A stretch of DNA of 64,000 bases, from the NCBI GenBank assembly GCA_964437495.1, contig CAYTGV010000003.1:17910-81909 (forward strand), given 5' to 3'. The notes under the pieces are model-generated. The model searched no databases. It was not told where the DNA came from and saw nothing but the letters and a program-made list of their open reading frames with translations. Source of the DNA: an uncultured Planctomycetia bacterium. Lineage in GTDB: Bacteria > Omnitrophota > Gorgyraeia > B26-G9. Positions within the stretch are counted from its first letter, which is position 1. The number at the start of each line of letters is the position of its first letter. The translations under genes were made by a program, and so were the position numbers. Of the stretch, positions 26,693 to 40,268 are shown piece after piece.

Positions 26693-26737
26693 GCTCGGTC
26701 GAGTCCGCGCGTCGCTTCGCGCCGCCAAGCCGAATCT

Positions 26738-26852
26738 GTCTTGCTGTCGTAGTGCTGTAATACCCCACCCACCCGGCAGTCTTTGTGCTCGGGCTCAACC
26801 ACTTCGTGTTTTCGCTTACCTGCGCTCAAAGCCAGCTTCCCCTTAAAAGGAA
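26738..26852 (+). repeat. repeat 'b' (copy 1) containing ccccacccacccg ... cctgcgctcaaagcc, followed by promoter of first island operon
   Basis: Direct-orientation similarity to 37143-37318. Confidence 0.5.
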
Positions 26853-27060
26853 GAGGAGACCTGTATCAAATATTCATCAACACTTCTGTCTTTTTTGCAA
26901 AAAGCCAGAACAGTCCGCAACGCCAAAAGACATCCGCCTTAGGCGGAAGACATTTGCCCTTCGGGTTCGCGTTGCTTTGATGAATATTTGAAAAGTTTTC
27001 AATACAAAGCTTTTGCTAATATATATTGCACACACGGTGCAATATGTGTATAATATTAAC

Positions 27061-28068
27061 ATGACTAATGTTTCTATTCCAGAAGCTTCATATTCCAATC
27101 TATTAAAAAAATTAAAAAAAGAAATTGCTGAAGGCCTAGTCCGTGCCCAGAGAGCTTATGACAGGGAAAAAGTCATAGCTTACTGGAAAATAGGTCAATC
27201 AATCTCCAAACATCTTTCAAAAAATAAGGATAGAGCAGATTATGGCAAGAAACTATATAAAAGACTTTCTGATGATCTTTCTATCGGGGAACGCCTACTT
27301 TATCAAATATCTCAATTTTACAATACATATCCTCATTTTAAACCTTCCCAAAACTTAAAATGGTCCCATTATCGTTTATTGACCTCAGTTAAAGACGAAG
27401 GGAAGAGAACTCTTCTTGAAACTAAAGTCTCAAATGATAACTGGTCAAAGAGAGCATTAGAAGATTTTATTAGAGAAGACAAAGAGCAAGATGTTGAACC
27501 TACAAAGCCTTCCATAAAAAGAACGAAAAAGCTATCTTGTTCTAAAGGCAGGTTGTATACATACAAGATATTCAAAGATGACTATGCGGATAATATGCTT
27601 ATAGATTGCGGGTTTAATACTTATAGAGAATCCGAAATGGCAAGTTTTAAGGGGGACTTTGTAGAAACCGTTAAAGCAGAAGATAGCTACAAACTGCTTA
27701 AGTCAACCGCTACTCGTAAACATCTATATACTTACAAGGCATATATTAAAAAGATAATTGACGGTGATACTATCTGGGTAAATATAGATTGTGGTTTTAA
27801 GACATGGGTTAAGCAAAAAATCCGGTTGCGTGGCATAGATACTCCCGAGATTGAGACGAAAAAGGGGATAGAATCGTTTAAGTTTGTTTGCAAGGTACTT
27901 AAAAACCTACCATTCATTATAATCAAAAGTCATGGCAGAGATAAATACGACCGTTATCTTATGGATCTTTATTACACAAAAGGAGAAGAAAACCCTTTAG
28001 TTGTCCTAGAGAAGGGGGCATTTCTTAATCAAGTGCTTTTGGATAAGAATTTAGCAATACGGGTATAA
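27061..28068 (+). CDS. nuclease: DUF1016 (YhcG) N-terminal domain fused to staphylococcal-nuclease (SNase/thermonuclease) domain
   Basis: N-terminal LKWSHYRLLTSV motif of DUF1016_N. C-terminal IIDGDTIWVN...IRLRGIDTPEIETKKG matches the SNase motif (DGDT ... R.GID.PE). A degenerate first SNase-like repeat precedes it. TATAAT 27046-27051 only 9 nt before ATG 27061 suggests a leaderless transcript. Confidence 0.6.
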   Translation: MTNVSIPEASYSNLLKKLKKEIAEGLVRAQRAYDREKVIAYWKIGQSISKHLSKNKDRADYGKKLYKRLSDDLSIGERLLYQISQFYNTYPHFKPSQNLKWSHYRLLTSVKDEGKRTLLETKVSNDNWSKRALEDFIREDKEQDVEPTKPSIKRTKKLSCSKGRLYTYKIFKDDYADNMLIDCGFNTYRESEMASFKGDFVETVKAEDSYKLLKSTATRKHLYTYKAYIKKIIDGDTIWVNIDCGFKTWVKQKIRLRGIDTPEIETKKGIESFKFVCKVLKNLPFIIIKSHGRDKYDRYLMDLYYTKGEENPLVVLEKGAFLNQVLLDKNLAIRV

Positions 28069-28134
28069 ATAATACAGATGTAGGGGGAGGGGCTTGTCTC
28101 CGCCCGCTAATCATAGACAGTTGTGTTAATAAAT

Positions 28135-28156
28135 AGTACGTAGTATACTACGTACT
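28135..28156. promoter_or_regulatory. 22-bp perfect palindrome AGTACGTAGTATACTACGTACT immediately upstream of the AbrB-like gene (candidate operator)
   Basis: Read directly; 12 bp upstream of RBS taggagg for ATG 28169. Confidence 0.5.
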
Positions 28157-28168
28157 ATAGGAGGCTTA

Positions 28169-28351
28169 ATGATGGCTAGATATAAGAAGGAAGATGGAGT
28201 GGTTAGGAAATTAACCAAAACAGGAAAATACACTTATTACGTAACAATTCCAAGAGAATATATTGCAACACTTGGATGGAGAAAAAAGCAAAAAGTATCA
28301 GTTCGGCTTTCAGGAAAGAAGATTATTATTGAGGATTGGAAGACACAATAA
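28169..28351 (+). CDS. AbrB/MazE/SpoVT-like swapped-hairpin DNA-binding protein (antitoxin-like), 60 aa
   Basis: YYVTIPREYIATLGWRKKQKVSV matches SpoVT/AbrB domain consensus (tv.IPkeir..lgi..gd.v). Confidence 0.5.
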   Translation: MMARYKKEDGVVRKLTKTGKYTYYVTIPREYIATLGWRKKQKVSVRLSGKKIIIEDWKTQ

Positions 28352-28464
28352 GCATTATTGTTGTATTTTTTGTACTTTGATTGCTCTAACTATATGAATG
28401 TTGTATAATAGATACTAACATTGTATATTTCAATAATAAAGACAATAATATTATTGAGGGAGAT

Positions 28465-28911
28465 ATGAGTATAATTGACTTAACACAACAAGAAGCAGAT
28501 GCATTAATTGCTATGGATAAAGTACGTATTAGCGATGAGCGGTATCTATTTCCTCAGCTTGGTGGTTCCTTAAGAATTCCTTTAAAATCGAAGGATGCAC
28601 GAGAGGAATTTATGCTTGATATTACCAGAGGTCAGATTAACCTTAAGAAAAATACTTTTCAAAATAGAGCACGTAAAGCAATAGTGCTAGTTAGGGTTGA
28701 TATTGATGGCCCCCCTCATTGTAATCCAGATGATAAAATAGTAGATTGCCCACATATTCATACTTATCGTGAAGGTTTTGGTGATAAATGGGCAGTCTCT
28801 TTGCCGGATTTTTTCTCGAAACCCGATGATAGTTGGACGACACTCGAAGAATTCATGAAGTATTGTAATATTTCTGATAAGCCGAATATTACTAGGGAAT
28901 TATTTATATGA
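28465..28911 (+). CDS. hypothetical protein (148 aa) with [10 protein letters not shown] motif, translationally coupled to next gene
   Basis: ORF; stop overlaps next start (ATGA). Confidence 0.4.
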
Positions 28912-29675
28912 AGGATGAAATTCAAAAATTATTAGATAATTATAATTTGTGGTTAAAAGATAGAACCGTTCTGAAACAAATTACTGATAAATGGGTTGAA
29001 ATTACTACGCCTCATCTTGATCGGCATAATGATTGTTTGCAGATTTATGTATTCAAACAAAATAATGGCTATTTAATAACAGATGATTCATATATAATTA
29101 CTGACTTAGCAAATTCAGGGTGTACTATAGATACTCCTAAGCGTCAAGAGCTTCTTAGGATGACTTTAGCTGGTTTTGGAGTGCAATTAGATGGTGATCG
29201 TTTAGTTGTTCATGCTACTTTTGAAAATTTTTCGCAAAAAAAACATAATATTATTCAGGCAATGGTGGCAGTTAATGATCTTTTTTATTTGGCGTCTCCT
29301 TATGTGTCTAGTATTTTTTATGAAGATGTTGCCAAATGGCTTGATCTTTCCGACATACGTTATACCCCTAAAGTTAAATTTACTGGTAAAACAGGGTATG
29401 ATTATATGTTTGATTTTGTAGTGCCTAAATCTAGGCAAGCACCTGAACGGATTTTACAGACAGTTAATAATCCTAAAAAAGATTCTGCTGAAGCCCTGCT
29501 TTATAGATGGATGGATACAAAGGAAACAAGACCACCAGATTCTAGATTGTATGCCTTTTTAAATGATTCCAATTTTCGTGTTTCGCAATCTGTTGTTGAT
29601 GCATTGGCAAGTTATGATGCGGTTCCTATTTTGTGGTCAAACCGTGAAGGGACACGCAAAGCATTATGTTCTTAG
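28908..29675 (+). CDS. DUF1828/DUF1829-type protein (255 aa)
   Basis: N-terminal LWLKD ... [20 protein letters not shown] resembles DUF1828 N-terminal region, C-terminal half DUF1829-like; assignment from memory of family consensus. Confidence 0.45.
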
Positions 29676-29809
29676 ATTTGTTATGATTAAAGGTCACATA
29701 TAATATCTAAAAAGAGGTCTCTTACTGCAATAAGTTGTTTTTTGAGTAGAATACGTTTACTTAATAGGTGAAAATCTAAAACTTAAATATTTTCGAAAAA
29801 GGGTATCAA

Positions 29810-32800
29810 ATGAGCTCTGATTTAACCTTTATAACCAATGAAAAGAATAAGCACTTACTTGACCGCTTTAAAGTTCTTATTAAAGACACACGTTTCTTTG
29901 ATGTTCTTGTCGGGTATTTTTATACAAGTGGTTTTCATGCCTTATATAAATCATTAGAATCTACTGAGAAGATCAGAATTCTTATTGGTATCAGCACTAA
30001 TAAAGAGACTGTTACTCTTTTTAATAAAGCAAATTATAATCTCCAGCCAACCTTTCAGTTTTCTCATGCAGAAGTTAAAAAGGAATTTGAAAATCATGTA
30101 AGTGAAGAGATGGAGAATTCGGAAGATAATCCCCATGTCGAAGAAGGGGTTTTAAAGTTCATTGAATGGCTAAAAATTGGAAAGCTTGAGATCAAAGCTT
30201 ATCCAACTCAAAATATACATGCAAAACTCTACATTATGACCTTTACTGAAGATGATCGCGATAAAGGGAGGGTGATAACAGGTTCAAGTAATTTTACTGA
30301 AGCTGGATTAAGGGATAACTTAGAATTTAATGTTGAGTTAAAAAATAGATCGGACTACGATTTTTCCTTGCAGAAATTCAATGAGCTTTGGGAAGATGCA
30401 GTAGATGTTAAAGATAAGTATATTGAGTCTATTCAGACAAAAACGTGGTTGAATGATACTATTACGCCTTATGAGTTGTATTTAAAGTTTTTATATGAAT
30501 ATTTTAAAGAAGATTTGAGTCAACCTGAAGAGGTTTTTTACCGTTATGTCCCTTCAGAATTCATGAAGCTTGAATATCAAGAACAAGCAGTATTGAATGC
30601 AAAGCGAATTCTTGATGAGTATGGCGGGGTTTTTATTTCTGATGTTGTTGGTTTAGGAAAAACTTATGTTTCTGCCTTACTTGCGCAACAATTAGATGGG
30701 CGGACATTAGTTATTGCTCCCCCGGTTCTTTTAGATAAGTGTAATCCGGGGTCGTGGCCAAATGTATTTTCTGATTTTAAAGTGGCTGCTGATTTCGAAT
30801 CATTAGGCAAGTTAGATAGCTTAATTAAAAGAGGAGCAGATAAATATAAAAATATCTTTATTGATGAAGCTCATCGTTTTAGAACAGAAACTAATATGAC
30901 CTATGAAAAGCTTGCTCAAATTTGCAGGGGCAAACGAATAATTTTAGTTACAGCAACTCCTTACAATAACTCTCCTAAAGATATTTTAAGTCAGATTAAG
31001 CTCTTTCAAAAAGGCAGGAATAGCACTATTCCTAATCTACCTGATTTGGAAAGGTTTTTTGGGGCTTTAGGGAAAAGAATAAAGAAGCTTGATAGACAGA
31101 AAGATTATAAAGAATATATAAGTATTGTTAGAAATAATGCGAAAGAAATCAGAGAAAAAGTTTTAAAATATTTAATGGTTCGGCGCACTCGCAATGAAAT
31201 CGTCAACCATTTTTCAAGGGATTTAAAAGAGCAAAATTTGAAGTTTCCAGATGTAGCTGATCCTGAAGCTATATTCTACGAATTAAATGATGAGGAAGAT
31301 AAGGTTTTTACTCAGACTATAGAGCTTATTGCTAAGAAGTTTAAATATTCTCGTTACACCCCATTATTATATTATCAAGGGAAAATTACCCAACCAGAAG
31401 AGTTAGCTCAAAGAAATATGGGCAAGTTCATGAAAATTCTTTTGATTAAAAGACTAGAGAGTAGCTTTTTTGCTTTTAGAAATTCTATAAGTAGATTTAT
31501 TGTTTCGTATACCCACTTTTTGAATGAACTAGATAAAGGCAATGTTTATGTCAGTAAAAAGCATATGAGTAAATTATTTGACTTGCTAGAAAATGACGAT
31601 GAAGAAGCAATTCAACGACTAATAGAAGAAGATAAAGCTAAAAAATATGATGCAAAAGATTTCAAAAAAGATTTTAAAAATGACTTAAAACATGATTTAG
31701 GAATATTATTAACCATTAAGAGGTTATGGGAAACCGTAAAAAGAGACCCTAAGCTTTTAGCGGCAAAACAGAAGTTGTCATCGAGGAAAATACTTAAAGA
31801 GCAAAAACTGATTATTTTTACTGAATCAAAAGAAACTGCTGATTATTTGTCAGGACATCTCAACGAATTATATAAAGATAAAGTTTTATGTTTTTCAGGC
31901 AGTTCTAGCGCTAGGATAAGAGAAAGGGTAATTGAAAATTTTGATGCAAAGGCTAGATATCCGAAGGATGATTATAGAATTCTTGTAAGTACAGAGGTTC
32001 TTTCAGAAGGTGTTAATTTGCATAGGTCCAATGTAGTTATTAATTACGACATTCCTTGGAATCCAACCCGTTTAATGCAAAGGGTAGGGCGAATTAATCG
32101 TGTCGATACAAAATTTAATAAGATTCATAGTTTTAATTTTTTTCCGACTAAGCAGTCAAATGATCAGATTAAACTGAAAGAGGCTGCTGAAGGTAAAATC
32201 CATGCTTTTATTTCAATGCTTGGAGCAGATGCTCGGTTGCTCACTGAAGGTGAGCCTATTGAGTCATTCGAATTGTTTAATAAATTACTTTCTAAAAAGA
32301 CGATTACTGGGGAAGATGAGCATGAGGAAAGCGAGTTGAAATATTTACAAGTTATAAAGGAGATTCGAGATAAAAACATAGACTTATTTGAAAAAGTAAA
32401 ACGATTGCCAAAAAAATCTAGGACAGCAAGGATTTTAAAAGATGCAAAAAATGCCCTTCTTACTTATTTTCGAAAGGGCAAATTACATAAGTTTTATATG
32501 GTAAGAATGAAGACTGAACCCGAGGAATTAGATTTTATTTCTGCAGCAAAGCGGTTGGAGGCTAGCCAGAGTGAGAAACGAGAAAAAATAAGTAAAGATT
32601 TATATGAGTTGTTAGAGAAAAATAAGCAAGCTTTTCATCATGCCACATTTGAAGAAGTGCCTGAGATTAAAGGGAAAGGTGGTCGTGATACTGTAACTTT
32701 AGTGTTAAGGATTCTTAAAACGAATGATATCAGGCGTTATAAGGGGTATACAGAGGATGATGAGCTCTATATTAAAAAAGTAATCAAAGAGGTAGAAGAA

Positions 32801-33001
32801 GGCGGTCTACCCAGACAAACTTCAAAGACTTTATTGAAAGAACTTCAAAAAGAATTGAAAAAAGGAGTTAATCCATTAAAGATATTAGCAATTTTAAAGA
32901 TGAATATTCCTGCTGAATTTTTACAAGAAGCTGCTTTTCAAACTGCTGCTCAAATTTTCGGCCCCAGAGAAGTGATTTTATCAGAATATTTTAAAGGTTG
33001 A
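29810..33001 (+). CDS. PLD-family (HKD) nuclease domain fused to SNF2/DEAD-like helicase (1063 aa)
   Basis: N-terminal NIHAKLYIMTF ... ITGSSNFTEAG is the HxK(x)4D(x)6GSxN PLD motif. Helicase domain shows Walker A GLGKTYVSALLA, DEAH-like FIDEAHRF, motif VI MQRVGRINR, and C-terminal STEVLSEGVNLHRSNVVINYDIPWNP. Confidence 0.8.
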   Translation: MSSDLTFITNEKNKHLLDRFKVLIKDTRFFDVLVGYFYTSGFHALYKSLESTEKIRILIGISTNKETVTLFNKANYNLQPTFQFSHAEVKKEFENHVSEEMENSEDNPHVEEGVLKFIEWLKIGKLEIKAYPTQNIHAKLYIMTFTEDDRDKGRVITGSSNFTEAGLRDNLEFNVELKNRSDYDFSLQKFNELWEDAVDVKDKYIESIQTKTWLNDTITPYELYLKFLYEYFKEDLSQPEEVFYRYVPSEFMKLEYQEQAVLNAKRILDEYGGVFISDVVGLGKTYVSALLAQQLDGRTLVIAPPVLLDKCNPGSWPNVFSDFKVAADFESLGKLDSLIKRGADKYKNIFIDEAHRFRTETNMTYEKLAQICRGKRIILVTATPYNNSPKDILSQIKLFQKGRNSTIPNLPDLERFFGALGKRIKKLDRQKDYKEYISIVRNNAKEIREKVLKYLMVRRTRNEIVNHFSRDLKEQNLKFPDVADPEAIFYELNDEEDKVFTQTIELIAKKFKYSRYTPLLYYQGKITQPEELAQRNMGKFMKILLIKRLESSFFAFRNSISRFIVSYTHFLNELDKGNVYVSKKHMSKLFDLLENDDEEAIQRLIEEDKAKKYDAKDFKKDFKNDLKHDLGILLTIKRLWETVKRDPKLLAAKQKLSSRKILKEQKLIIFTESKETADYLSGHLNELYKDKVLCFSGSSSARIRERVIENFDAKARYPKDDYRILVSTEVLSEGVNLHRSNVVINYDIPWNPTRLMQRVGRINRVDTKFNKIHSFNFFPTKQSNDQIKLKEAAEGKIHAFISMLGADARLLTEGEPIESFELFNKLLSKKTITGEDEHEESELKYLQVIKEIRDKNIDLFEKVKRLPKKSRTARILKDAKNALLTYFRKGKLHKFYMVRMKTEPEELDFISAAKRLEASQSEKREKISKDLYELLEKNKQAFHHATFEEVPEIKGKGGRDTVTLVLRILKTNDIRRYKGYTEDDELYIKKVIKEVEEGGLPRQTSKTLLKELQKELKKGVNPLKILAILKMNIPAEFLQEAAFQTAAQIFGPREVILSEYFKG

Positions 33002-33005
33002 CCTA

Positions 33006-36000
33006 ATGGAAAGAAAGCAAGCAAATAAGATAGTCAAAGATACTTTTGAAAATCCCTTCAATAAAGAACAATTCGTCTATTTTATCAAAAACCTTCTTAA
33101 TCATATTGAAGAAACTCCTGGTACGCTTTATCGTGGTAATTATATTCCTGATGCTTATGCTCCTTATGTAAATACATTAGAGCGTTTAGGTAAATATTTA
33201 GATGCTGATGAACGGTCAATAGATGTATTGATAGTTAATCTTAAAAAAAATACTTCTCTAGAGCGTGCACGTACTATGCAGCGTAATTTTATTGCTTGGT
33301 ATTTGAATGGTAGTCGAGGAGGGGTATTAAAAGATGCTGCATTGGTTGCTTTTGTTTCTCCAGCACAAGAAGATTGGAGATTTTCTCTAGTAAAAATGGA
33401 GTATAGTTTAGATACCAGCGGAGAAAAGGTTAAAACAAAAAAAGAGTTAACCCCTGCCAGAAGATTTTCTTTCTTAGTTGGAAAAAATGAAAATACGCAT
33501 ACTGCCCAAAGTTACTTATCCCCTATAATAGCTGATGAGAGTAAAGATTTAAATTTAAGTAATATAGAGAATGCCTTCAGTATTGAAAAAGTAACAAAAG
33601 AATTCTTTGAAAAATATAGAGATTTATTTCTTAAATTGACAGACTCTCTAAATGAGATAGTTAAAAAAGATCAAAAAGTTAGGGCTGATTTTAAAAACAG
33701 AGGAGTAGAAACTGTAAATTTTACCAAAAAGCTTTTAGGGCAGGTAGTATTTCTTTATTTTTTGCAAAAGAAAGGTTGGTTTGGAGTAGGAAGAGATGAA
33801 GAGTGGGGAACAGGACCTAAGAATTTTTTAAGGCTTCTTTTTGAGAAAAAGATTGTTGATTATAATAATTTTTTCAATGATATTTTGGAACCATTGTTCT
33901 ATGAGGCATTAGCTACTGAAAGAGAAGATAGTTTTTATAGCAGATTTAACTGTAAAATTCCATTTTTAAATGGCGGATTATTTGATCCTATTAATAATTA
34001 CGATTGGGTTCATACCGATATTGTTTTATTAAATGATATTTTCTCAAATAAGCATAAGACAAAAGAAGGTGATGAAGGGTCAGGAATTTTAGATGTTTTT
34101 GATAGATATAATTTTACTGTTAAGGAAGATGAGCCGCTTGAAAAAGAAGTAGCCGTAGACCCTGAAATGCTTGGTAAGGTTTTTGAGAATTTATTGGAAG
34201 TAAAAGATAGAAAGTCCAAAGGTACTTATTATACTCCCAGAGAGATTGTGCACTATATGTGCCAACAAAGTTTATGCAATTATTTGGCAGAAGAGCTTAA
34301 GGAAAAAATCACAAAAGAAGAGATTGATACGCTTATAAAATACGGAGAAAGTGCTATAGAACATGATAGTAGAGTTGAAACCTATGGAAAAGAAACAAAA
34401 ACTTATTCTTTTAAACTTTCTGAGAATATTAGAAAGAATGCATCTTTAATTGATGAAAAACTTTCGGATATTCGTGTATGTGATCCTGCTGTTGGTTCTG
34501 GAGCTTTTCTCGTTGGAATGATGAACGAAATTGTTCGTGTCCGCAATGCTTTAACTACCTATTTAAGAGATAAAAAGCAAAGAACCTTTTATGATTTTAA
34601 ACGGAATGCTATCCATTATTCTCTTTATGGGGTAGATATGGATCCAGGTGCTACTGAGATAGCTAAACTTAGACTTTGGTTGTCACTTGTTGTAGATGAA
34701 GAAGATATTAAACAAATTAAACCATTGCCTAATTTGGACTATAAGATTATGCAGGGCAATAGTCTAATTGAGGATTTAGTTATTAACAATATTGTTATTA
34801 AGTTTAATCTAGATGATGTAGTTAAAGTTGATCGTCGTACCAAGAAAACAAAAGAGTTATTTAAAAAAGAAGTGCAGCATACACTTTTTAAAGATAAAAG
34901 TGAGGATATTTTTGAAGAATTAAAGAAGTTGCATTCTGTTTATTTTGAAGAGAATAATAAAAACAAGAGGTTAATTTTAAAAGAAAAGATTGTTAGTACA
35001 GAGCAGTTATTTATAACAGCAAAATGCGAAGAAGAAATAGAGCGGTTAAATGTATTTAAGAATAATTGTCGAGATAGAAAAAGAATAAGCAATGTCGAAA
35101 GTCAAATAAAAACCATTCATTCTACGCTTCGTAAATTAAAAAAAGAAGGAACAAAACCTTTTTTCTTATGGAAGCTTAATTTTTCTGAAGTTTTTATTGA
35201 TAAAGGTGGGTTTGATGTGATTGTGGGGAATCCTCCTTATGTTCAGCTTCAAAAAACTGGTGGAGAATTAGCTAATGTTTATGAGCAGTGCGATTATGTT
35301 ACTTTTTCACGGACTGGTGACATTTATACATTATTTTATGAAAAAGCTCATCGCTTGTTGCGGACTCATGGGATAGCTTGTTTGATAACTTCTAATAAAT
35401 GGATGCGGGCTGGATATGGCAAATTGATTCGTAGGTACTTTATAGATGTTGTTTCTCTTCTTATTCTTATTGATTTTGGTGATGCACCATTATTCAAGAA
35501 TGCAACAACTTATACCAATATACTTCTTTTTAAGAATATTCCACCTAGTGATTGCAGATGTTCTGTTTATGACTTAAGTAAAGAGAAAGGCGTAGAGGGT
35601 AGATTATTATATTACCTCAGGAACTTGCAAGGAAAATATATTTCCAATTTTACAGAGGTAAGTTATTTGATTGTTAATAAATATGAATTCCAAATAAAGC
35701 AGAAGGTTGAAGCTAAAGGCATACCATTAAAAAATTGGGATATTGATATTTATCGGGGTATTTTGACTGGATTCAATGAAGCTTTTATTATTAACACCGA
35801 GATAAAAGAACGTTTATGCCGGGAAGATCCTAATTGTTTAAAAATTATTAAACCTATATTGAGAGGGCGGGATGTTAAAAGGTATAAAGCGGAATTTGCT
35901 GGATTGTGGTTGATTAATACCCACAATGGTTATGATAATGAGCCTCCAGTTGATATTAATGATTATCCAGTAATTAAAGATTATTTGAAGGAGATTGAAA

Positions 36001-36530
36001 GGAAACGTGTGGCTGGCGAGTATGGAGAAAAGGCCAAAAAAGCTAAAGGATTATTTAAGCGTGATGATCAGGGCATAACACCTTATAACTTAAGAAATTG
36101 TGCATATATCCCTAGTTTAGAGTTGGGTAAGATTATTTGGGCAGAAATAGTATTTGATTCTGCATTTTATTATGATGAGGATAACTATTATCCTGAGGCA
36201 ACATGTTTTGTCATGATAGGTAATAGGTTAAAGTACTTACAGGCTCTACTAAATTCTAAATTACTAACGTTTGCATTTAGAAAGTATTATGCTGGAGGAG
36301 ATTTAAGAGGTAATACTTTTAGATACAAGAAAGTTTTTGTTGAAAAACTGCCTGTGCTACGAATTTCTGAGCGCGAACAGCAATCTTTTGGAAAAATAGT
36401 AGATAAGATAGTTGGTGATAAAAAGAAAGGTAAAGATACTCTTATTTTGGAAGAAGAAATTGATGAACTTGTGTTTGATCTCTATGCTTTGACTGCAGAA
36501 GAACGAGAACAGGTAAGGAATTCATACTAA
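33006..36530 (+). CDS. large gamma-class N6-adenine DNA methyltransferase with C-terminal target-recognition region (PglX/MmeI-like, 1174 aa)
   Basis: Motif I VCDPAVGSGAFLVG (FxGxG), motif IV VGNPPYVQ (NPPY), about 430 aa C-terminal extension; separated by 4 nt from helicase gene (operon). Confidence 0.75.
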   Translation: MERKQANKIVKDTFENPFNKEQFVYFIKNLLNHIEETPGTLYRGNYIPDAYAPYVNTLERLGKYLDADERSIDVLIVNLKKNTSLERARTMQRNFIAWYLNGSRGGVLKDAALVAFVSPAQEDWRFSLVKMEYSLDTSGEKVKTKKELTPARRFSFLVGKNENTHTAQSYLSPIIADESKDLNLSNIENAFSIEKVTKEFFEKYRDLFLKLTDSLNEIVKKDQKVRADFKNRGVETVNFTKKLLGQVVFLYFLQKKGWFGVGRDEEWGTGPKNFLRLLFEKKIVDYNNFFNDILEPLFYEALATEREDSFYSRFNCKIPFLNGGLFDPINNYDWVHTDIVLLNDIFSNKHKTKEGDEGSGILDVFDRYNFTVKEDEPLEKEVAVDPEMLGKVFENLLEVKDRKSKGTYYTPREIVHYMCQQSLCNYLAEELKEKITKEEIDTLIKYGESAIEHDSRVETYGKETKTYSFKLSENIRKNASLIDEKLSDIRVCDPAVGSGAFLVGMMNEIVRVRNALTTYLRDKKQRTFYDFKRNAIHYSLYGVDMDPGATEIAKLRLWLSLVVDEEDIKQIKPLPNLDYKIMQGNSLIEDLVINNIVIKFNLDDVVKVDRRTKKTKELFKKEVQHTLFKDKSEDIFEELKKLHSVYFEENNKNKRLILKEKIVSTEQLFITAKCEEEIERLNVFKNNCRDRKRISNVESQIKTIHSTLRKLKKEGTKPFFLWKLNFSEVFIDKGGFDVIVGNPPYVQLQKTGGELANVYEQCDYVTFSRTGDIYTLFYEKAHRLLRTHGIACLITSNKWMRAGYGKLIRRYFIDVVSLLILIDFGDAPLFKNATTYTNILLFKNIPPSDCRCSVYDLSKEKGVEGRLLYYLRNLQGKYISNFTEVSYLIVNKYEFQIKQKVEAKGIPLKNWDIDIYRGILTGFNEAFIINTEIKERLCREDPNCLKIIKPILRGRDVKRYKAEFAGLWLINTHNGYDNEPPVDINDYPVIKDYLKEIERKRVAGEYGEKAKKAKGLFKRDDQGITPYNLRNCAYIPSLELGKIIWAEIVFDSAFYYDEDNYYPEATCFVMIGNRLKYLQALLNSKLLTFAFRKYYAGGDLRGNTFRYKKVFVEKLPVLRISEREQQSFGKIVDKIVGDKKKGKDTLILEEEIDELVFDLYALTAEEREQVRNSY

Positions 36531-36626
36531 TATTCCCGCCCTTTGCAATCGCAGTCGTCCGGCTTCATCCCGATAATTCGGTATTCCGCAACGTACTTTG
36601 TGCGCTTGCCCCCCCCCTAAAGGAAA

Positions 36627-36966
36627 CAAAAACACACCTTTTTAAAAAAATATTTCGCCGCCGCCAAAAAAAGAAATAAACGTTCAATTATGAGGGTTTT
36701 GCTCGGGAGAGGACGCAGGGATGCTAAACGAAGCCATTTCTGGCGAAGTGAGGCAGACCAAAGCCGGATCGTAGTAACGCATGAGCACGAAGCGAGCGGC
36801 CCAGCGAGCGAGGCAGTGAGCCGAAGCCCCAGCTGAGGCGAACGGTGCAAACACTGCCCAAGTAGCCCCGCCGAAGGCGGGGCGGTGCATCATAAAGTCA
36901 ATTCAGGTAGGAAAACAGTAAAAAGGAATGGTTTGAGAACTTTGTAGAGTGCAATCCAAGGGTCAA
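36627..36966 (-). repeat. GC-rich repeat 'a' (copy 2, inverted)
   Basis: Reverse complement aligns base-for-base with 26362-26692, with scattered substitutions. Confidence 0.7.
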
Positions 36967-37141
36967 CCGAATGTCTTAATGTAGAAACTTTTCGGCGAAT
37001 TTTTGTAAGCCGTTGATTTTGTTGACATTGTGATTTTCTTTCTGTTTCTGAAAACAAAAAATTAAAAGGGGGGAAAAGAGAAAAAGAAATTCTTTTATGG
37101 GGTCGAGCGCCGCCGATGGCGGGGGCGATTTTGATGTTTTT
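36967..37141 (-). repeat. inverted copy of miaB promoter/5'-start segment 'r' (near-identical to 45395-45569); with repeat 'a' forms an attP-like junction
   Basis: Reverse complement of 36967-37141 is almost identical to 45395-45569, including ttctacattaagacaTTCGGttg; continues into repeat 'a' instead of miaB. Confidence 0.7.
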
Positions 37142-37142
37142 C

Positions 37143-37318
37143 GTCTTGCTCTCGCTAATGTCTCGCAATCCGTCACACATCTCCCTAGATGTGCGTTAAA
37201 AAGCAGAAAAAAAGAAAAACCCCCACCCACCCGAAAATTGTCTCTGTGCTCGGACTTCTACGCCTCTGGCGTATTCGTTCCCTGCGCTCAGAGCCAATTT
37301 GTTCCCCCTAAAAATGGA
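37143..37318 (+). repeat. repeat 'b' (copy 2), followed by TTGACA...TAAAGT promoter of second island operon
   Basis: Similarity to 26738-26852 (gtcttgctNtcg ... ccccacccacccg ... cctgcgctcagagcc). Confidence 0.5.
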
Positions 37319-37319
37319 G

Positions 37320-37348
37320 CTTGACAAAATATGACAAAATGTGTAAAG
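37320..37348 (+). promoter_or_regulatory. sigma70-like promoter TTGACA-N17-TAAAGT, about 10 nt before ATG 37359 (near-leaderless)
   Basis: ttgacaaaatatgacaaaatgtgtaaagt read directly. Confidence 0.45.
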
Positions 37349-37358
37349 TGGGTTCACT

Positions 37359-37541
37359 ATGGAAAAACGATATAATTTAAGCAAAGCGGCAAAAGAATTA
37401 GGCATCACTCGCCAAGGTCTTTATTACTGGATAAAGAAAGGGTGGGTTACGCCTAAACGTGATTTTAAGAATCATCCTGTTTTTACGGATGCTGATTTGA
37501 AAAAGATTAAAGGGTGGATGAATAAATTAAAGGATTCCTGA
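37359..37541 (+). CDS. excisionase/AlpA-like HTH DNA-binding protein (candidate recombination directionality factor or regulator), 60 aa
   Basis: LSKAAKELGITRQGLYYWIKKGWV helix-turn-helix of excisionase-type; first gene of second island operon. Confidence 0.5.
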   Translation: MEKRYNLSKAAKELGITRQGLYYWIKKGWVTPKRDFKNHPVFTDADLKKIKGWMNKLKDS

Positions 37542-37543
37542 TT

Positions 37544-39148
37544 ATGAATATTGAAATCTTTATTGGGTTCTTAGGGCTTTTGATTACGATGTATGCTATT
37601 GCCCCAGAGGTGGTCAAGGCTAGGGTTCATGCTTTTATTAATCCATTGCTGTTTAAAATCGCGATACCTTTATATATAGTTGTATCTTTGTGCGTTCTTT
37701 ATTTTGAGCATTATTACTTAGATGATGTTTTAATGTGTGAAGTTTTATTTTGGGCAAAATATCTTTCTTATTGTGGGATATTCTTGTTAATATGGTTTAT
37801 CTATACATCTTTGAGAGATAGAAAGCTGGGGAAATCAAATATTGAAAGGTTTTATAAATTCCTAAAAGTTCTTTTGTCAAAGCAGCAGTTTTCAATATTA
37901 ATTGATATATTACATGGTAGTCTTAAATACATACTTCCATTATATAATGTTCAAGCAAAACCTGAAAAGTGTAAGAAATTAAAAAATACCATTATGGTTG
38001 GCGGCAAGGTTATTCCTTTTCCAGTTTTTCCATCTGATTCTTTTGAGACAGAGATTTCAAAAAAGATATTTAGAGACGTAATTTTTAACGAATCGTTCAT
38101 AAGGGCAAATATTCATTATGGGAAAAATTTTTCTATTGATTTTATAAGTGGTTGTAGAAAAAATAAAATACACATAAGTGATTATTCGGACTTGTTTCTT
38201 TATGAGCTTTTAAAAAACAAAGACTCTTTCCTCTATCAAGAATTAAAAGAAACGCTTACAGTCTATTCTCCAAGTAACGATGAATTTGATAGGTTTCCAT
38301 TTTTACATGTATTATTTGAGGATATTAAATACTTTAATGAACAGGGATTTTATAGAGGAATAGGGGAGTATGTCATTGAATTTGTTGATAGAAATATTGA
38401 CAGTAATAATGAGCGATATAGCCGTAGTACTAAATATTATTGGGATCAACGTGAGCGAGATGGTAAATACAAATGTCCTGTTTATATGGGACTTAGTTAT
38501 TTTACATATATGGTGAACAAGGCTATACGTGAGAATATTCAAAGCCATATGTGGCTTTTGTATGTTCATTATTGGGTTAAAGCGATATGTAAGAAAATGG
38601 TTTACTATGAAGATGAATGGCAGGGGGGCGGTGAGTTTCCTACAATTTACTGTTATTTGCTTTATGAGCTGCTTGGTATCCATGGCAATTGGGTTAAGCA
38701 TATATATGAAGTTTCAAGCGAGGAACAACATGGTAGTTCTTTTCAGCAGGACGATAAATCAATTGATATAAGTGAGGAAAGGGAGTTAATTTTAGAATGG
38801 ATACTTAAGGATATGCTTTATTGTGCTGATAGTATCGCGCAATGTGAAGCCATCCCCTATGATAAGCGTGTGTACTTACTTAAAACGTTTATGGGTGTAA
38901 ATATTGGGATAAAAAGCAACTTTTCTCAATACGGGAAAGCTTGTATTGCAAAAGCCACCAATTTAAATAAAGTTATTAGTATATATATAGATGAGTTTGA
39001 AAAAAGAATACGTAACAAGAATTACTCAAAAGCTTTTAACGAAGATTTAAAAAATGCGTGTCAAGATGCATTAGAATCAATGGATACAATTCCTTTAGAC
39101 AGTAATATTGTTAGATTTTGGAAGGGCTGGCTCAGTGGATTACAGTAA
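37544..39148 (+). CDS. membrane-anchored protein of unknown function (534 aa; 3 N-terminal TM helices + large cytoplasmic domain)
   Basis: Hydrophobic segments at residues about 5-20, 40-55, 75-90; no recognisable catalytic motif; start 3 nt after HTH gene stop. Confidence 0.4.
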   Translation: MNIEIFIGFLGLLITMYAIAPEVVKARVHAFINPLLFKIAIPLYIVVSLCVLYFEHYYLDDVLMCEVLFWAKYLSYCGIFLLIWFIYTSLRDRKLGKSNIERFYKFLKVLLSKQQFSILIDILHGSLKYILPLYNVQAKPEKCKKLKNTIMVGGKVIPFPVFPSDSFETEISKKIFRDVIFNESFIRANIHYGKNFSIDFISGCRKNKIHISDYSDLFLYELLKNKDSFLYQELKETLTVYSPSNDEFDRFPFLHVLFEDIKYFNEQGFYRGIGEYVIEFVDRNIDSNNERYSRSTKYYWDQRERDGKYKCPVYMGLSYFTYMVNKAIRENIQSHMWLLYVHYWVKAICKKMVYYEDEWQGGGEFPTIYCYLLYELLGIHGNWVKHIYEVSSEEQHGSSFQQDDKSIDISEERELILEWILKDMLYCADSIAQCEAIPYDKRVYLLKTFMGVNIGIKSNFSQYGKACIAKATNLNKVISIYIDEFEKRIRNKNYSKAFNEDLKNACQDALESMDTIPLDSNIVRFWKGWLSGLQ

Positions 39149-39267
39149 ATTATGAAAGTATCAATTTGTATAAGAGTTTCAACTGGAGACCAAGTTAAAG
39201 AGAGGTTACTCTAAGAAATCTAAATAGGTTGTTTTGAGGGCGTTGTTATTATTAAGATTTAAAATTT

Positions 39268-40149
39268 ATGAGAAATATAAATAGATATTTTTGTCGAGCA
39301 TTAGATTCCAATAACACATTTTCGCCAAGTGTTCATTGGGAGCATTGTCTTTTGTTAGAAAAGGCAATGTTGGATATATTACAATATATTCCCATACATG
39401 ATGGGATGCCGGATGAGAATTGGAAAGTTAGCAGTCCAAAATTAATAGATATATTTGTCAAGTCATGCTTCCTTTTTGAAGCGGCATTTAAAGGTATTTC
39501 AAATGAACCAACGGATCGTATTGTCAACTATCTTAAACAAAATGCATATGTATGGAGTGAATATTTTCTTGATGGAAAAAATCGCAACGGCAAATGTAAA
39601 GAATTAGATATTTGCGATTTTTTAACCTTTTATGACGCGTATTGTTCCTTGAACTTCTTAGAAGCAAGAATCAGATGTTCTCAAAATATTAGTGACGTTT
39701 GGGTAAATAAAATGACTGTAATTCGTCCATTTTTTAATATGAAACTCGAAAATAATGTAGTAATTAAATCCCCTGATTGGTGGAAAAAATACACACAAAT
39801 TAAACATAATTTTTATTCCTATCCACAAGAAATTAATTTGGAAGCTACAATTGAAGCTTTAGCTGCATTGATATCTTTCACCGCAGTTGTTCCTCAGATG
39901 CGTCGATTACTCTGCGATCATGGGTACATACAGGATAATTTTAAAAAACCTTTTGATATTGAAAAAATCGGACGAAAAATTAATGATAAATTTGTTAAGG
40001 ACCCTTGGGTTAACCATAAAAAAATGTTCTTCGAGGAATATGATGATATTGATACGATGCCCGCTATTGCATGTGTATCAGATTTATTTATAGTACCTTT
40101 TGTAGGCGATTATAGAAAAGCTAGATTATGGTCGGGGATAGGAAAATAA
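39268..40149 (+). CDS. hypothetical protein (293 aa), no recognised domain
   Basis: ORF in operon context; Cys/His-rich, W-rich C-terminal region. Confidence 0.35.
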   Translation: MRNINRYFCRALDSNNTFSPSVHWEHCLLLEKAMLDILQYIPIHDGMPDENWKVSSPKLIDIFVKSCFLFEAAFKGISNEPTDRIVNYLKQNAYVWSEYFLDGKNRNGKCKELDICDFLTFYDAYCSLNFLEARIRCSQNISDVWVNKMTVIRPFFNMKLENNVVIKSPDWWKKYTQIKHNFYSYPQEINLEATIEALAALISFTAVVPQMRRLLCDHGYIQDNFKKPFDIEKIGRKINDKFVKDPWVNHKKMFFEEYDDIDTMPAIACVSDLFIVPFVGDYRKARLWSGIGK

Positions 40150-40154
40150 GAGTT

Positions 40155-40246: not shown

Positions 40247-40268
40247 GAGGTGTTAAGGACTTAATAAT

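What the first reader, a model, noticed from the sequence alone, without database searches (positions are those of the whole stretch)
29810..36530. Two-gene RM-like module: PLD-nuclease-SNF2 helicase fusion plus about 1170 aa PglX/MmeI-like N6-adenine methyltransferase
Gene 1 fuses an HKD phospholipase-D-family nuclease domain to a complete SNF2/DEAH helicase. Gene 2, 4 nt downstream, is a large gamma-class adenine MTase (FxGxG + NPPY) with a long C-terminal specificity region. The parts resemble pieces of DISARM (DrmC PLD, DrmD SNF2, DrmMI) and BREX (PglX). But the DISARM core DrmA/DrmB and the BREX BrxC/PglZ genes are absent, and PLD is fused to the helicase. This looks like a compact helicase-dependent, methylation-guarded restriction system. 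It is not a canonical Type I/II/III or Type ISP organisation.
Basis: partly seen in the sequence, partly recalled or inferred. Interest (0 to 1): 0.65.

Follow-up and report, generated by a model that had tools for sequence, protein, structure and literature searches.

The report
Two-gene helicase-nuclease plus methylase restriction module
Two adjacent genes, a DNA-motor protein with a built-in nuclease and a large adenine methylase carrying its own variable DNA-reading domain, form a self-contained, widespread but uncharacterised restriction-modification-type defence module that is the stripped-down relative of the DISARM, BREX and MANTIS systems.

Summary
ORF 29810-33001 encodes a 1063-aa protein with one HKD (phospholipase-D) nuclease motif fused to a complete Snf2-like SF2 ATPase. 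Four bases downstream, ORF 33006-36530 encodes a 1174-aa gamma-class N6-adenine methyltransferase. It has MmeI/PglX-like architecture and a TaqI_C-type specificity domain.

The pair is real, conserved and self-sufficient. In 69 of 69 informative species-representative loci, from many bacterial phyla and two archaeal lineages, the methylase gene follows the helicase gene on the same strand. No third gene is conserved: no DrmA/B, BrxC/PglZ, DUF499 or DUF3780. The helicase-nuclease is 56-79% identical across those loci. The methylase specificity domain is hypervariable (about 22% identity), as in restriction systems. Guest genes typical of Type I R-M operons sit between or just after the two genes.

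The methylase N-terminal domain lacks a PD-ExK catalytic motif. The "Type IIG" label that databases give it is therefore doubtful; the nuclease is supplied by gene 1.

Closest characterised relatives are MANTIS/Gao_RL (needs two extra proteins), Type ISP enzymes and SauUSI.

Verdict: a new, minimal variant of a known kind. It has been noted in passing in the literature, and I found no functional study. Mechanism is inferred, not shown.

The parts
29810..33001 (+). Gene 1 (R/motor subunit): 1063-aa fusion of a single-HKD PLD nuclease and a Snf2-like SF2 ATPase, with an unassigned C-terminal region
   Evidence: ORF. Pfam PLDc_2, ResIII, SNF2-rel_dom and Helicase_C. Best PADLOC hit is C3a139 'HKD+Snf2' at 1.7e-42. 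At least 7891 homologues; the best 120 are 68-100% identical and full length.
29897..30391 (+). PLD/HKD nuclease domain (aa 30-194). The catalytic H137-x-K139 lies at 30218-30226 and G158-S-S-N161 at 30281-30292. There is only one HKD motif per chain, so a dimer is needed to build one active site.
   Evidence: Pfam PLDc_2 and RE_NgoFVII. H137, K139, G158, S159, S160 and N161 are invariant in 40 homologues. The dimer requirement is established knowledge for Nuc, BfiI and SauUSI, and was shown for MtsD (bioRxiv 10.64898/2026.09.23.753747).
30575..32209 (+). Snf2-like SF2 ATPase core (about aa 256-800). Walker A GLGKT is at 30650-30664, DEAH at 30863-30874, Helicase_C at 31790-32104 and motif VI QRVGRINR at 32078-32101.
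   Evidence: Pfam. Motif residues are invariant. Foldseek on a low-confidence model puts Chd1, RapA, Hef and CSB on top, with SauUSI 7clg at rank 12.
32180..32998 (+). C-terminal region of gene 1 (aa 791-1063). It is conserved but matches no Pfam family. I propose it as the interface with the methylase, by inference only.
   Evidence: No Pfam hit even at E <= 10. Many invariant positions. The AF2 model is poor in this region.
33006..36530 (+). Gene 2 (M+S subunit): 1174-aa gamma-class N6-adenine DNA methyltransferase with MmeI/PglX-like architecture
   Evidence: ORF. Pfam Eco57I, N6_Mtase, MmeI_Mtase and TaqI_C. PADLOC REase_MTase_IIG PDLC03596 at 1082.8 bits. AF2 model has pLDDT 80.2. Foldseek matches CamA (E 2e-23), near-full-length PglX/BrxX (8q56, 9ewz) and MmeI 5hr4.
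33006..33485 (+). Family-specific N-terminal domain (aa 1-160). It has an alpha-beta-beta-beta-alpha-beta order like a PD-(D/E)xK fold but no conserved ExK. It is probably not a nuclease.
   Evidence: Secondary-structure order in the model. Position 78, the would-be acidic residue, is mostly H, Y, N, K or Q and never D or E among the six commonest residues. Position 80 is K, Q or N. This holds in 54 and 48 homologues. No Pfam hit. The domain sits at the N-terminus of proteins that, where complete, are about 1000-1340 aa, in 1005 clusters at 50% identity.
33498..34445 (+). Conserved helical spacer (aa 165-480) bearing the MmeI/PglX-type motifs FLQKKGW, IPFLNGGLF, NFTVxEDEPLEKEVAxDPExLG and YYTPRxIV
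   Evidence: Conservation. Mean identity is 64% over aa 201-480.
34446..35495 (+). Methyltransferase catalytic domain (aa 481-830). Motif I DPAVGSGAF is at 34482-34508 and motif IV NPPY at 35229-35240. The domain is split by a variable helical insert (aa 599-719, nt 34800-35162).
   Evidence: Pfam Eco57I at aa 539-830. Invariant residues. The insert has 13% mean identity and is predicted as long helices.
35496..36527 (+). Hypervariable target-recognition domain (aa 831-1174; TaqI_C at 35850-36356)
   Evidence: Pfam TaqI_C. Mean identity is 22%, against 54-64% for aa 1-598. In the near relative L088, gene 1 is 89% identical but gene 2 only 53%.

Best explanation
The two genes form a self-contained, ATP-dependent restriction-modification system. 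It is a 'split Type ISP-like' or minimal MANTIS-like module.

Gene 2 is both the sensor and the modifier. Its single C-terminal specificity domain reads a short, probably asymmetric sequence. Its gamma-class catalytic domain puts N6-methyl on one adenine, so host sites are marked on one strand.

Gene 1 is the effector. It is recruited or licensed by the methylase sitting on an unmethylated site, presumably through the conserved C-terminal region of gene 1 and the conserved N-terminal 600 aa of gene 2. Its Snf2-like motor then burns ATP to move along double-stranded DNA. Its PLD nuclease has only one HKD motif per chain and needs two chains for one active site. It cuts when two motors or complexes meet or when a dimer is activated.

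Because modification is expected on one strand only, efficient cleavage should need two unmodified sites in inverted orientation. That requirement protects freshly replicated host DNA.

What is shown here: intact catalytic motifs in all three enzymatic modules, strict conserved linkage, absence of any other conserved partner, a hypervariable specificity domain, and absence of a PD-ExK motif in the methylase.

What is inferred: physical R-M interaction, hemimethylation, translocation, site-orientation dependence and anti-phage effect.
For: 1. Catalytic residues of the HKD nuclease, the SF2 ATPase and the methyltransferase are intact. Nearly all are invariant across 40-54 homologues.
2. Linkage is strict. 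A gene-2 homologue lies downstream on the same strand in all 69 GTDB species-representative loci that have enough downstream sequence. These loci span many bacterial phyla plus Woesearchaeota and Nanoarchaeota. One locus, L028, keeps only a remnant.
3. Linkage is reciprocal. Starting from the methylase in three genomes of 2.7-6.2 Mb, the PLD-Snf2 gene is upstream each time.
4. There is no third conserved gene. Clustering 964 neighbouring ORFs gave gene 1 in 77 loci, gene 2 in 57 and the next family in only 10.
5. The evolutionary signature is RM-like. Gene 1 is 56-79% identical across those loci and gene 2 aa 1-598 is 54-64% identical, but the specificity domain is 22% identical. The domain is swapped between near-identical cassettes.
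6. Guest genes behave as in Type I R-M operons. Between the two genes sit AlbA_2+HATPase_c_4, Fic, ORF6N, Bro-N, RhuM and small TA-like pairs. Just downstream sit AAA_13 proteins (which I take, from my own knowledge, to be PrrC/RloC-like) and OLD-family ATPases. R-M operons are known to carry such extra genes, for example prrC in the Type Ic prr locus (PMC3632139).
7. The methylase's own N-terminal domain lacks the ExK residues, so the only recognisable nuclease is the PLD of gene 1.
8. The structure model of gene 2 aligns over nearly full length with PglX/BrxX and MmeI. MmeI modifies one strand of its site (title of PMC2731913), and hemimethylation is described as a BREX-like feature.
9. The architecture of gene 1 matches MtsD of MANTIS and SauUSI. 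Both are dimeric PLD-SF2 enzymes, and SauUSI is a proven dsDNA translocase.
10. More distant relatives (25-36% identity) on plasmids of Parabacteroides, Lactococcus, Synechocystis and Natrinema also sit next to a large N6 methylase. In Thermococcus, Thermus and Allomeiothermus a DNA methyltransferase lies one to a few genes away. Both gene orders occur.
11. The pair sits in a low-GC island among other defence candidates.
Against: - There is no experiment and no methylome for any member.
- In MANTIS the homologous-type methylase cannot bind DNA without an AAA+ loader (MtsA) and a co-factor (MtsB). MtsD cleavage has not been reconstituted in vitro. Independence of such helpers here is therefore an assumption.
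- The AF2 model of gene 1 is poor (pLDDT 62.8), so its structural assignment is only indicative.
- The proposed R-M interface is a guess from co-conservation.
- A non-canonical nuclease site in the methylase N-terminal domain (nearly invariant D73, mostly conserved E59 and K63) cannot be excluded.
- Hemimethylation and the site-orientation rule are by analogy only.
Confidence: 0.65

Rival explanations
1. Gene 2 is an autonomous Type IIG/IIL enzyme of the Eco57I/MmeI kind that both cuts and methylates. Gene 1 is then either a separate SauUSI-like, modification-dependent (Type IV) enzyme or a mere accessory that happens to travel with it.
For: PADLOC assigns gene 2 to a REBASE-derived 'REase_MTase_IIG' model at 1082.8 bits over the whole length. 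The N-terminal domain has a PD-(D/E)xK-like strand and helix order. Gene 1 has the PLD-SF2 layout of SauUSI. [quoted passage not shown]
Against: The would-be catalytic E-x-K is absent from the whole family: position 78 is never acidic. Linkage with gene 1 is universal and reciprocal, which independent systems would not show. Gene 1 has no recognisable reader domain for modified bases. A Type IV enzyme next to an adenine methylase would have to tolerate that methylase's own marks on host DNA.
Confidence: 0.12
2. The pair is an incomplete piece of a larger system (MANTIS/BR type 2, DISARM class 1, BREX type 3 or ARMADA). It needs partners encoded elsewhere in the genome, or it is a decaying remnant.
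For: An Snf2-like helicase plus a PglX-like methylase is the shared module of DISARM class 1, BREX-3, ARMADA and Hma/BR systems. Sub-threshold hits to DrmD, BrxHII, DrmMI and PglX were found. In MANTIS the methylase depends on MtsA/MtsB.
Against: No DUF499, DUF3780, YprA/DUF1998, BrxC or PglZ gene was found within +/-10 kb in about 80 genomes or among the ORFs scanned in the 64-kb window. Both genes are intact and strongly conserved across phyla. The pair moves between phyla as a unit and also occurs in an 802-kb genome (contig CP055308). The helicase carries its own nuclease, so the effector is complete.
Confidence: 0.08
3. The pair works without classical sequence-specific cleavage of invader DNA. 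One possibility is BREX-like replication blocking. Another is abortive infection, where the methylase senses unmodified DNA and unleashes the PLD-helicase on all DNA, the host's included.
For: BREX-type methylases give defence without demonstrated cleavage, and MtsD cleavage could not be reconstituted. Abi-type neighbours (AAA_13 proteins, which I take to be PrrC/RloC-like, OLD-family ATPases and TA pairs) often accompany the pair.
Against: An intact, invariant HKD site fused to a motor is the layout of proven DNA-cutting enzymes such as SauUSI. The RM-like specificity turnover fits a direct self/non-self cleavage logic.
Confidence: 0.1

Closest known systems
MANTIS (formerly Gao_RL / Gao_29; BREX-related type 2). 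Sources: bioRxiv 10.64898/2026.09.23.753747 and NAR 2026 PMC12839542.
   Same: The effector MtsD has an N-terminal single-HKD PLD nuclease fused to an SF2 helicase-like ATPase. Self DNA is marked by an N6-adenine methylase that also provides sequence specificity. The logic is RM-like.
   Different: MANTIS has four genes. The DUF499 AAA+ ATPase MtsA must load the methylase on DNA, and the small protein MtsB (called DUF3780 in PMC12839542 and DUF3870 in the MANTIS preprint) activates it. Neither exists here or in about 80 related loci. Gene 1 scores 136 bits against NCBIfam NF042964 'phospholipase D-like domain-containing anti-phage protein' (cut-off 1100), which I presume, without checking, to be the MtsD-type model. 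It is at best a distant relative, not a member.
Type ISP restriction-modification enzymes (LlaGI, LlaBIII)
   Same: They carry the same set of activities in the same order: nuclease, SF2 dsDNA translocase, gamma-class adenine methylase and a single C-terminal specificity domain. They recognise asymmetric 'half-sites' and cleave only after ATP-driven convergence from head-to-head sites (PMC3874165). This is the best functional analogy.
   Different: Type ISP enzymes are one polypeptide with an Mrr-like PD-QxK nuclease. Here the activities are split over two genes, the nuclease is PLD/HKD, the motor is Snf2-like, and the methylase half has an extra conserved 480-aa N-terminal part of MmeI/PglX type.
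SauUSI (Type IV, PDB 7CLG)
   Same: It has an N-terminal single-HKD PLD nuclease plus an SF2 motor. It is a homodimer forming one PLD site, a proven ATP-dependent translocase, and is stimulated by inverted sites. It is a Foldseek hit of the gene-1 model (low-confidence model).
   Different: SauUSI reads 5mC through its own C-terminal SRA domain and has no methylase partner. Gene 1 has no recognisable reader domain and is always paired with an adenine methylase.
DISARM class 1 (DrmD + DrmMI module), BREX type 3 (BrxHII + PglXI) and ARMADA (ArmA + ArmB)
   Same: All share an adjacent pair of an Snf2/RapA-like helicase and a PglX-like N6-adenine methylase.
   Different: Those systems add YprA/DUF1998 helicases and a separate PLD (DISARM), BrxC/PglZ (BREX), or YprA- and GajB-like helicases (ARMADA). 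Here nothing is added and the PLD is fused to the helicase. All equivalog scores are far below threshold.
MmeI / Type IIL and Eco57I-type Type IIG enzymes
   Same: The domain order of gene 2 is N-terminal domain, helical spacer, gamma-methylase, then a single specificity domain. The model aligns with MmeI 5hr4. It matches the Pfam families MmeI_Mtase, Eco57I and TaqI_C.
   Different: Type IIG enzymes cut with their own N-terminal PD-ExK domain and need no ATP. In this family that motif is absent, and a motor-nuclease gene is always attached.
CglI / NgoAVII (ATP-dependent Type II systems with a PLD nuclease)
   Same: A PLD-family nuclease is coupled to a helicase-like ATPase in a restriction system (PMC5737866). 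Gene 1 gives a weak Pfam RE_NgoFVII hit.
   Different: In those systems nuclease and ATPase are separate proteins and the nuclease itself reads the sequence (B3-like domain). From my own knowledge, the methylase is an unrelated C5 enzyme.

Membership tests
DISARM | Core genes drmA (helicase) and drmB (DUF1998) next to the methylase and PLD | tested here: not met
   No DUF1998 or YprA-type protein among the window ORFs scanned, in the contig's precomputed Pfam list, or as a recurrent neighbour in 77 loci. No such gene in Mb-scale genomes.
DISARM | DrmD equivalog (NCBIfam NF038317 / NF038318) | tested here: not met
   Scores were 124.8 bits against a cut-off of 610, and 79.9 against 950.
BREX (types 1-6) | BrxC/PglY ATPase and PglZ phosphatase in the locus | tested here: not met
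   Absent from the window ORFs scanned and from all surveyed loci.
BREX (types 1-6) | PglX equivalog score | tested here: not met
   NCBIfam BREX-1 PglX scored 93.1 bits against a cut-off of 500. BREX-2 scored 64.5 against 400, and BREX-6 scored 60.2 against 900. The fold is nevertheless PglX-like.
MANTIS / Gao_RL / BREX-related type 2 | DUF499 AAA+ ATPase (MtsA) in the operon | tested here: not met
   No DUF499 hit in the window or in the neighbourhoods.
MANTIS / Gao_RL / BREX-related type 2 | MtsB, a small DUF3780-type protein (98% of type-2 systems) | tested here: not met
   Not found in the window or the loci.
MANTIS / Gao_RL / BREX-related type 2 | HKD nuclease at the N-terminus of an SF2/Snf2 helicase, plus an N6-adenine methylase | tested here: met
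   At the sequence level, however, NF042964 scores only 136 bits against a cut-off of 1100.
Type ISP R-M | All activities in a single polypeptide with an Mrr-like PD-QxK nuclease | tested here: not met
   There are two ORFs separated by a stop codon and 4 nt. The nuclease is PLD/HKD.
Type ISP R-M | Cleavage only with two head-to-head sites after ATP-driven translocation | not testable with these tools
   This needs biochemistry. It is predicted by analogy only.
Type IIG / IIL (Eco57I, MmeI) | N-terminal PD-(D/E)xK cleavage domain in the same chain as the gamma-methylase | tested here: not met
   The fold order is compatible. But no acidic residue occurs at position 78, position 80 is K, Q or N, and there is no conserved ExK in 54 and 48 homologues. 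There is no Pfam hit for aa 1-200.
Type IIG / IIL (Eco57I, MmeI) | Gamma-class N6-adenine methylase fused to a single C-terminal specificity domain | tested here: met
   PADLOC REase_MTase_IIG scores 1082.8 bits; as I understand it, that model's name rests on REBASE prediction, not on a tested nuclease.
Type I R-M | Separate HsdM and HsdS subunits, and an HsdR with a PD-ExK nuclease | tested here: not met
   M and S are fused in gene 2, and R carries a PLD nuclease and an Snf2-like motor. Operon behaviour (guest genes, specificity turnover) is Type I-like.
SauUSI-like Type IV | A reader domain for modified bases (SRA) and no cognate methylase | tested here: inconclusive
   The C-terminal 273 aa have no Pfam match and a poor model. 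The obligatory methylase partner argues against membership.

The most novel reading that the evidence does not exclude
The pair may be a stand-alone two-protein R-M system of a type not yet in the classification. In this reading a PglX/MmeI-like hemimethylating methylase directly loads and licenses a dimeric PLD-Snf2 motor nuclease with no AAA+ loader. The Snf2 motor may itself take over the loader role, making both methylation and restriction depend on one ATPase. The pair would then be the core module, possibly the ancestral one, to which DISARM class 1, BREX-3, ARMADA and Hma/MANTIS added further parts. It would also be a tractable minimal model for how these methylases talk to their effectors, which is still unresolved for BREX and MANTIS.
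Probability: 0.3. Interest if true: 0.7.

Novelty: new variant of a known kind. Interest (0 to 1): 0.55.

Why it matters
Methylation-guided defence systems built around PglX-like methylases (BREX, DISARM, MANTIS, ARMADA) are common, but their mechanisms are poorly understood. How the methylase signals 'unmodified DNA' to the effector is open. The effector step of MANTIS has not been reconstituted in vitro.

This family reduces the problem to two proteins. It is at least as widespread as many named systems. The methylase side forms about 1000 clusters at 50% identity.

Current annotation pipelines split the pair into a 'Type IIG' enzyme and an anonymous 'helicase-related protein'. Census figures for Type IIG systems are therefore probably inflated, and a distinct ATP-dependent R-M class is being overlooked.

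The very high cross-phylum conservation of the motor-nuclease, set against the freely swapped specificity domain, also makes the pair an attractive scaffold for studying or engineering specificity.

Tried and rejected
1. Ordinary DISARM or BREX. Rejected: no core genes among the window ORFs scanned or in any surveyed locus, and equivalog scores are far below threshold.
2. MANTIS/Gao_RL membership. Rejected: no DUF499 or DUF3780, and 136 bits against a cut-off of 1100.
3. True Type IIG. Rejected as stated: no ExK in the N-terminal domain.
4. Structure of gene 1. The AF2 model from 40 sequences that are too similar came out poor (pLDDT 62.8, pTM 0.40). The Foldseek ranking (Chd1, RapA, Hef, SauUSI) is only indicative.
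5. PDB sequence search. There is no close solved relative of either protein: only CamA and M.BseCI for the methylase core, and generic helicase C-domains for gene 1.
6. Pfam at E <= 10 on the gene-2 N-terminal domain and the gene-1 C-terminal region. Nothing found.
7. Promoter and terminator scan around the operon. Not above shuffled expectation, so uninformative.
8. Phage collection. Only remote partial hits; the pair is not a phage gene set.
9. tRNA and Rfam scans of the window. Empty, so the GC-rich structured stretches flanking the island are not known RNAs.
10. Literature. I found no functional study of the two-gene form. There is only a table entry noting a PLD+SNF helicase CDS next to Cj0031-like Type II R-M CDSs with programmed inversions (PMC9881135), and the PADLOC candidate label 'HKD+Snf2'.
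11. The odd internal attP-like junction. I could not derive it from a single simple rearrangement and left it as unexplained.

Full report
OBSERVATION

Gene 1 (29810-33001, +, 1063 aa) stops with TGA at 32999-33001. After the four bases CCTA, gene 2 (33006-36530, +, 1174 aa) starts.

Pfam assigns gene 1 a PLD-like domain (aa 30-194), ResIII and SNF2-related N-lobe matches, and Helicase_C (aa 661-765). There is only one HKD motif. H137, K139 and G158-S-S-N161 are invariant in 40 homologues. So are Walker A GLGKT (281-285), DEAH (352-355), A382-T-P384 of the TATP motif, and Q757/R758/G760/R761/N763/R764.

Gene 2 matches Eco57I, N6_Mtase, MmeI_Mtase and, at aa 949-1117, TaqI_C. Motif I (DPAxGSGAF, 493-501) precedes NPPY (742-745), and the specificity domain is C-terminal, which is the gamma-class order. 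The key residues are invariant in 54 homologues.

The rest of the 64-kb window, as far as scanned, is housekeeping: AcrB-type efflux, TrkA/TrkH, acetate kinase, MiaA, MiaB and an Mfd-like helicase. Alongside it are a few other defence candidates. No DISARM, BREX or MANTIS partner gene appeared.

IS THE PAIR A UNIT?

590 of 600 candidate stretches encode a relative, and I kept the best 80 loci. They come from Omnitrophota, Nitrospirota, Chloroflexota, Desulfobacterota, Patescibacteria, Planctomycetota, Bacteroidota, Acidobacteriota, Verrucomicrobiota, Thermotogota and other phyla. Two are archaeal (Woesearchaeota, Nanoarchaeota). All 80 gene-1 proteins are still 56-79% identical to the window protein.

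In every one of the 69 loci with more than about 1.9 kb of sequence after gene 1, a gene-2 homologue lies downstream on the same strand. One locus, L028, keeps only a C-terminal remnant. The 11 loci without a match simply end too early, or the remaining room is filled by a guest gene.

Starting instead from the methylase in three genomes of 2.7-6.2 Mb, the PLD-Snf2 gene is immediately upstream each time.

I clustered 964 neighbouring ORFs. Gene 1 was found in 77 loci, gene 2 in 57 and the next family in only 10. Nothing else is conserved.

RM-LIKE SIGNATURES

The methylase is conserved over aa 1-598 (54-64% mean identity to 47 full-length homologues). A helical insert (aa 599-719) and the specificity domain (aa 831-1174) are almost unalignable, at 13% and 22%.

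Two metagenome contigs carry the same five-gene cassette at 71-83% nucleotide identity. Their gene 1 is 89% identical to the window's. Gene 2 could be compared on one of them (L088) and is only 53% identical, so the specificity part has been exchanged.

In about 25 loci, one or two genes are wedged between the pair. They are AlbA_2+HATPase_c_4 proteins (10 loci), Fic/DOC, ORF6N, Bro-N, RhuM and small TA-like pairs. Directly downstream one often finds AAA_13 proteins (which I take, from my own knowledge, to be PrrC/RloC-like), an OLD-family ATPase or a UvrD-like helicase.

These are the kind of passengers known from Type I R-M operons. PMC3632139 describes variable extra genes in R-M operons, with prrC in the Type Ic prr locus as its example. 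PMC9881135 lists RhuM among families enriched around invertible R-M loci.

THE METHYLASE IS PROBABLY NOT A TYPE IIG NUCLEASE

PADLOC places gene 2 in a model called 'REase_MTase_IIG' at 1082.8 bits. [quoted passage not shown]

The AF2 model (pLDDT 80.2) aligns with CamA over the methylase and specificity part. It aligns over nearly the whole chain with PglX/BrxX (8q56, 9ewz) and with MmeI (5hr4).

Its first 160 residues have the alpha-beta-beta-beta-alpha-beta order of a PD-(D/E)xK fold. But the position that would carry the acidic residue of ExK (78) is mostly H, Y, N, K or Q and never D or E. The lysine position (80) is K, Q or N. No Pfam family matches this domain.

The domain is specific to this methylase family. 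It was found in 1005 cluster representatives at 50% identity. Among the 150 listed it is almost always at the N-terminus, and the complete proteins are about 1000-1340 aa. The only recognisable nuclease of the system is therefore the PLD of gene 1.

COMPARISON WITH KNOWN SYSTEMS

The best PADLOC hit for gene 1 is an uncharacterised candidate model, C3a139 'HKD+Snf2' (143.9 bits). DrmD, BrxHI/HII, HmaA, a model called PLD_Helicase and DpdE follow at lower scores. All NCBIfam equivalogs are far below threshold. DrmD scored 124.8 against 610. 'Phospholipase D-like domain-containing anti-phage protein' scored 136 against 1100. PglX scored 93 against 500.

The literature defines the relevant relatives:

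- BREX-related (BR) systems. A 2026 comparative study defines them as DUF499 ATPase + N6 methylase + Snf2 helicase. In type 2 the helicase carries an N-terminal HKD nuclease, and a DUF3780 protein is present in 98% of cases (PMC12839542).
- MANTIS. A September 2026 preprint characterises one such system (Gao_RL, renamed MANTIS). The methylase MtsC hemimethylates a 6-bp asymmetric site but must be loaded by the AAA+ protein MtsA and activated by MtsB. The PLD-SF2 protein MtsD is a dimer with one PLD site and is structurally like SauUSI. Restriction is favoured by inverted site pairs, and cleavage has not been reconstituted.
- ARMADA, DISARM class 1 and BREX-3 share an Snf2-helicase plus PglX-like methylase pair.

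The window's system is that shared pair with the nuclease fused on and nothing else. Functionally it has the same four activities, in the same order, as a Type ISP enzyme: nuclease, motor, gamma-methylase and single specificity domain. The differences are the split into two genes and a PLD nuclease instead of an Mrr-like one.

The only mention of the two-gene arrangement I found is a table in a survey of programmed inversions. It notes a CDS with PLD and SNF helicase domains next to 'Type II R-M' CDSs homologous to Cj0031 (PMC9881135).

More distant relatives of gene 1 (25-36% identity) sit beside large methylases on plasmids of Parabacteroides, Lactococcus, Synechocystis and Natrinema. In Thermococcus, Thermus and Allomeiothermus a DNA methyltransferase lies one to a few genes away. 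Both gene orders occur. The Lactococcus case has an inverted spare specificity cassette and an invertase.

MECHANISM

Shown:
- All three catalytic modules are intact.
- The two genes are obligatorily linked.
- No further partner is conserved.
- The specificity domain turns over rapidly.
- The methylase lacks a canonical nuclease site.

Inferred from the named relatives:
- The methylase recognises a short asymmetric site and methylates one strand.
- On an unmodified site it recruits or activates gene 1. Because the whole of gene 1 and the N-terminal 600 aa of gene 2 are co-conserved, I place the interface there.
- The Snf2-like motor translocates on dsDNA.
- The single-HKD nuclease needs two chains for one active site. 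It cuts either when converging complexes meet, as in Type ISP, or as a constitutive dimer that is licensed by a second site, as in SauUSI and MANTIS.
- One-strand modification predicts a requirement or preference for inverted site pairs.

The main uncertainty is whether a PglX-like methylase can engage DNA without an AAA+ loader. Either its own extra domains suffice, or the Snf2 motor does the loading. The second option would be mechanistically new.

CONTEXT

The pair lies in a 19.2-kb low-GC island (26361-45572; GC 0.31-0.34 against 0.37-0.40 outside). The island is inserted in the 5' end of miaB. It has a large serine recombinase at its right end and other defence candidates (see the items noticed in passing).

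VERDICT

The system is a new, minimal variant of a known kind: ATP-dependent, methylation-guarded restriction related to MANTIS, Type ISP and SauUSI. It is abundant in databases, mis-annotated there, and apparently uncharacterised. Interest is moderate to good. It is not conceptually surprising to a specialist, but it is a potentially valuable two-protein model for an open mechanistic question.

Noticed in passing
window 26326-26360, 36629-37141 and 45395-45572 (island 26361-45572): The defence island is an integrated element in the 5' end of miaB. The native miaB start (ATGAATAGAAAATTCTACATTAAAACCTTCGGCTG) is left at 26326-26360. The gene resumes at 45573 behind an element-borne replacement start at 45508. 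The crossover point is TTCGG(C/T)TG|. A third, attP-like junction lies inverted at 37141->36629: a 178-nt arm 100% identical to 45395-45572, joined to an arm 82-94% identical to 26361-26692. I could not derive this layout from one simple event.
   Followed up: partly
window 36964-37141 vs 45395-45572: A perfect 178-nt inverted repeat brackets an 8.25-kb segment. The segment holds an xis-like HTH gene, two unknown genes, Hypoth_Ymh, a split TrlF-like ATPase and the recombinase. The last ~60 codons of the recombinase ORF (43913-45580) lie inside the repeat. The segment could invert by homologous recombination, or its orientation may be ambiguous in a short-read assembly.
   Followed up: no
window 43913-45580: A large serine recombinase (555 aa; NCBIfam CcrB-like at 253 bits, below cut-off; also XisF-like) sits at the right end of the island. 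It is presumably the integrase.
   Followed up: no
window 41145-42323 and 42405-43916: A TrlF-family AAA-like ATPase, with weak similarity to the anti-phage protein Ppl, is split into two ORFs. They match model positions 2-337 and 461-944. This is either a frameshifted pseudogene or a genuinely split gene.
   Followed up: no
window 27013-29675: Three candidate defence genes lie upstream of the pair. They are DUF1016_N plus an SNase-like domain (PADLOC PDC-S02), DUF6978 (PDC-M24A, 203 bits) and DUF1828/DUF1829 (PDC-M24B, 352 bits). The whole five-gene block, including the pair, is conserved at 71-83% nucleotide identity on two other metagenome contigs, L088 and L089.
   Followed up: partly
window 26760-26850 and 37225-37315: A GC-rich element of about 90 nt (CCCCACCCACCCG...TGTGCTCGG...CCTGCGCTCA.AGCCA...) is repeated in direct orientation just inside each half of the island. 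Neighbouring GC-rich hairpins such as CACCGCCCCGCCTTCGGCGGGGC occur too. There is no Rfam or tRNA match and the function is unknown.
   Followed up: partly
window 37544-40149: Two ORFs have no match in Pfam, NCBIfam or PADLOC: 534 aa (37544-39148, with hydrophobic N-terminal stretches) and 293 aa (39268-40149). A Hypoth_Ymh/TIGR02391 protein follows at 40269-41060. This is possibly another uncharacterised defence module.
   Followed up: no
L087 (Lactococcus cremoris plasmid pJM1F, NZ_CP016750.2): A distant relative of the pair (helicase 1233 aa plus N-6 methylase 1106 aa) is followed by an inverted stand-alone TaqI_C specificity cassette and an Mpi-family invertase. This looks like a phase-variable specificity switch for this kind of system. 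It fits the inversions reported in PMC9881135.
   Followed up: no
L003:16614-20240, L017:16152-18590 and L058:17646-19994: In some genomes a large protein (782-1208 aa) with no Pfam match directly follows the methylase on the same strand. It may be a lineage-specific accessory.
   Followed up: no
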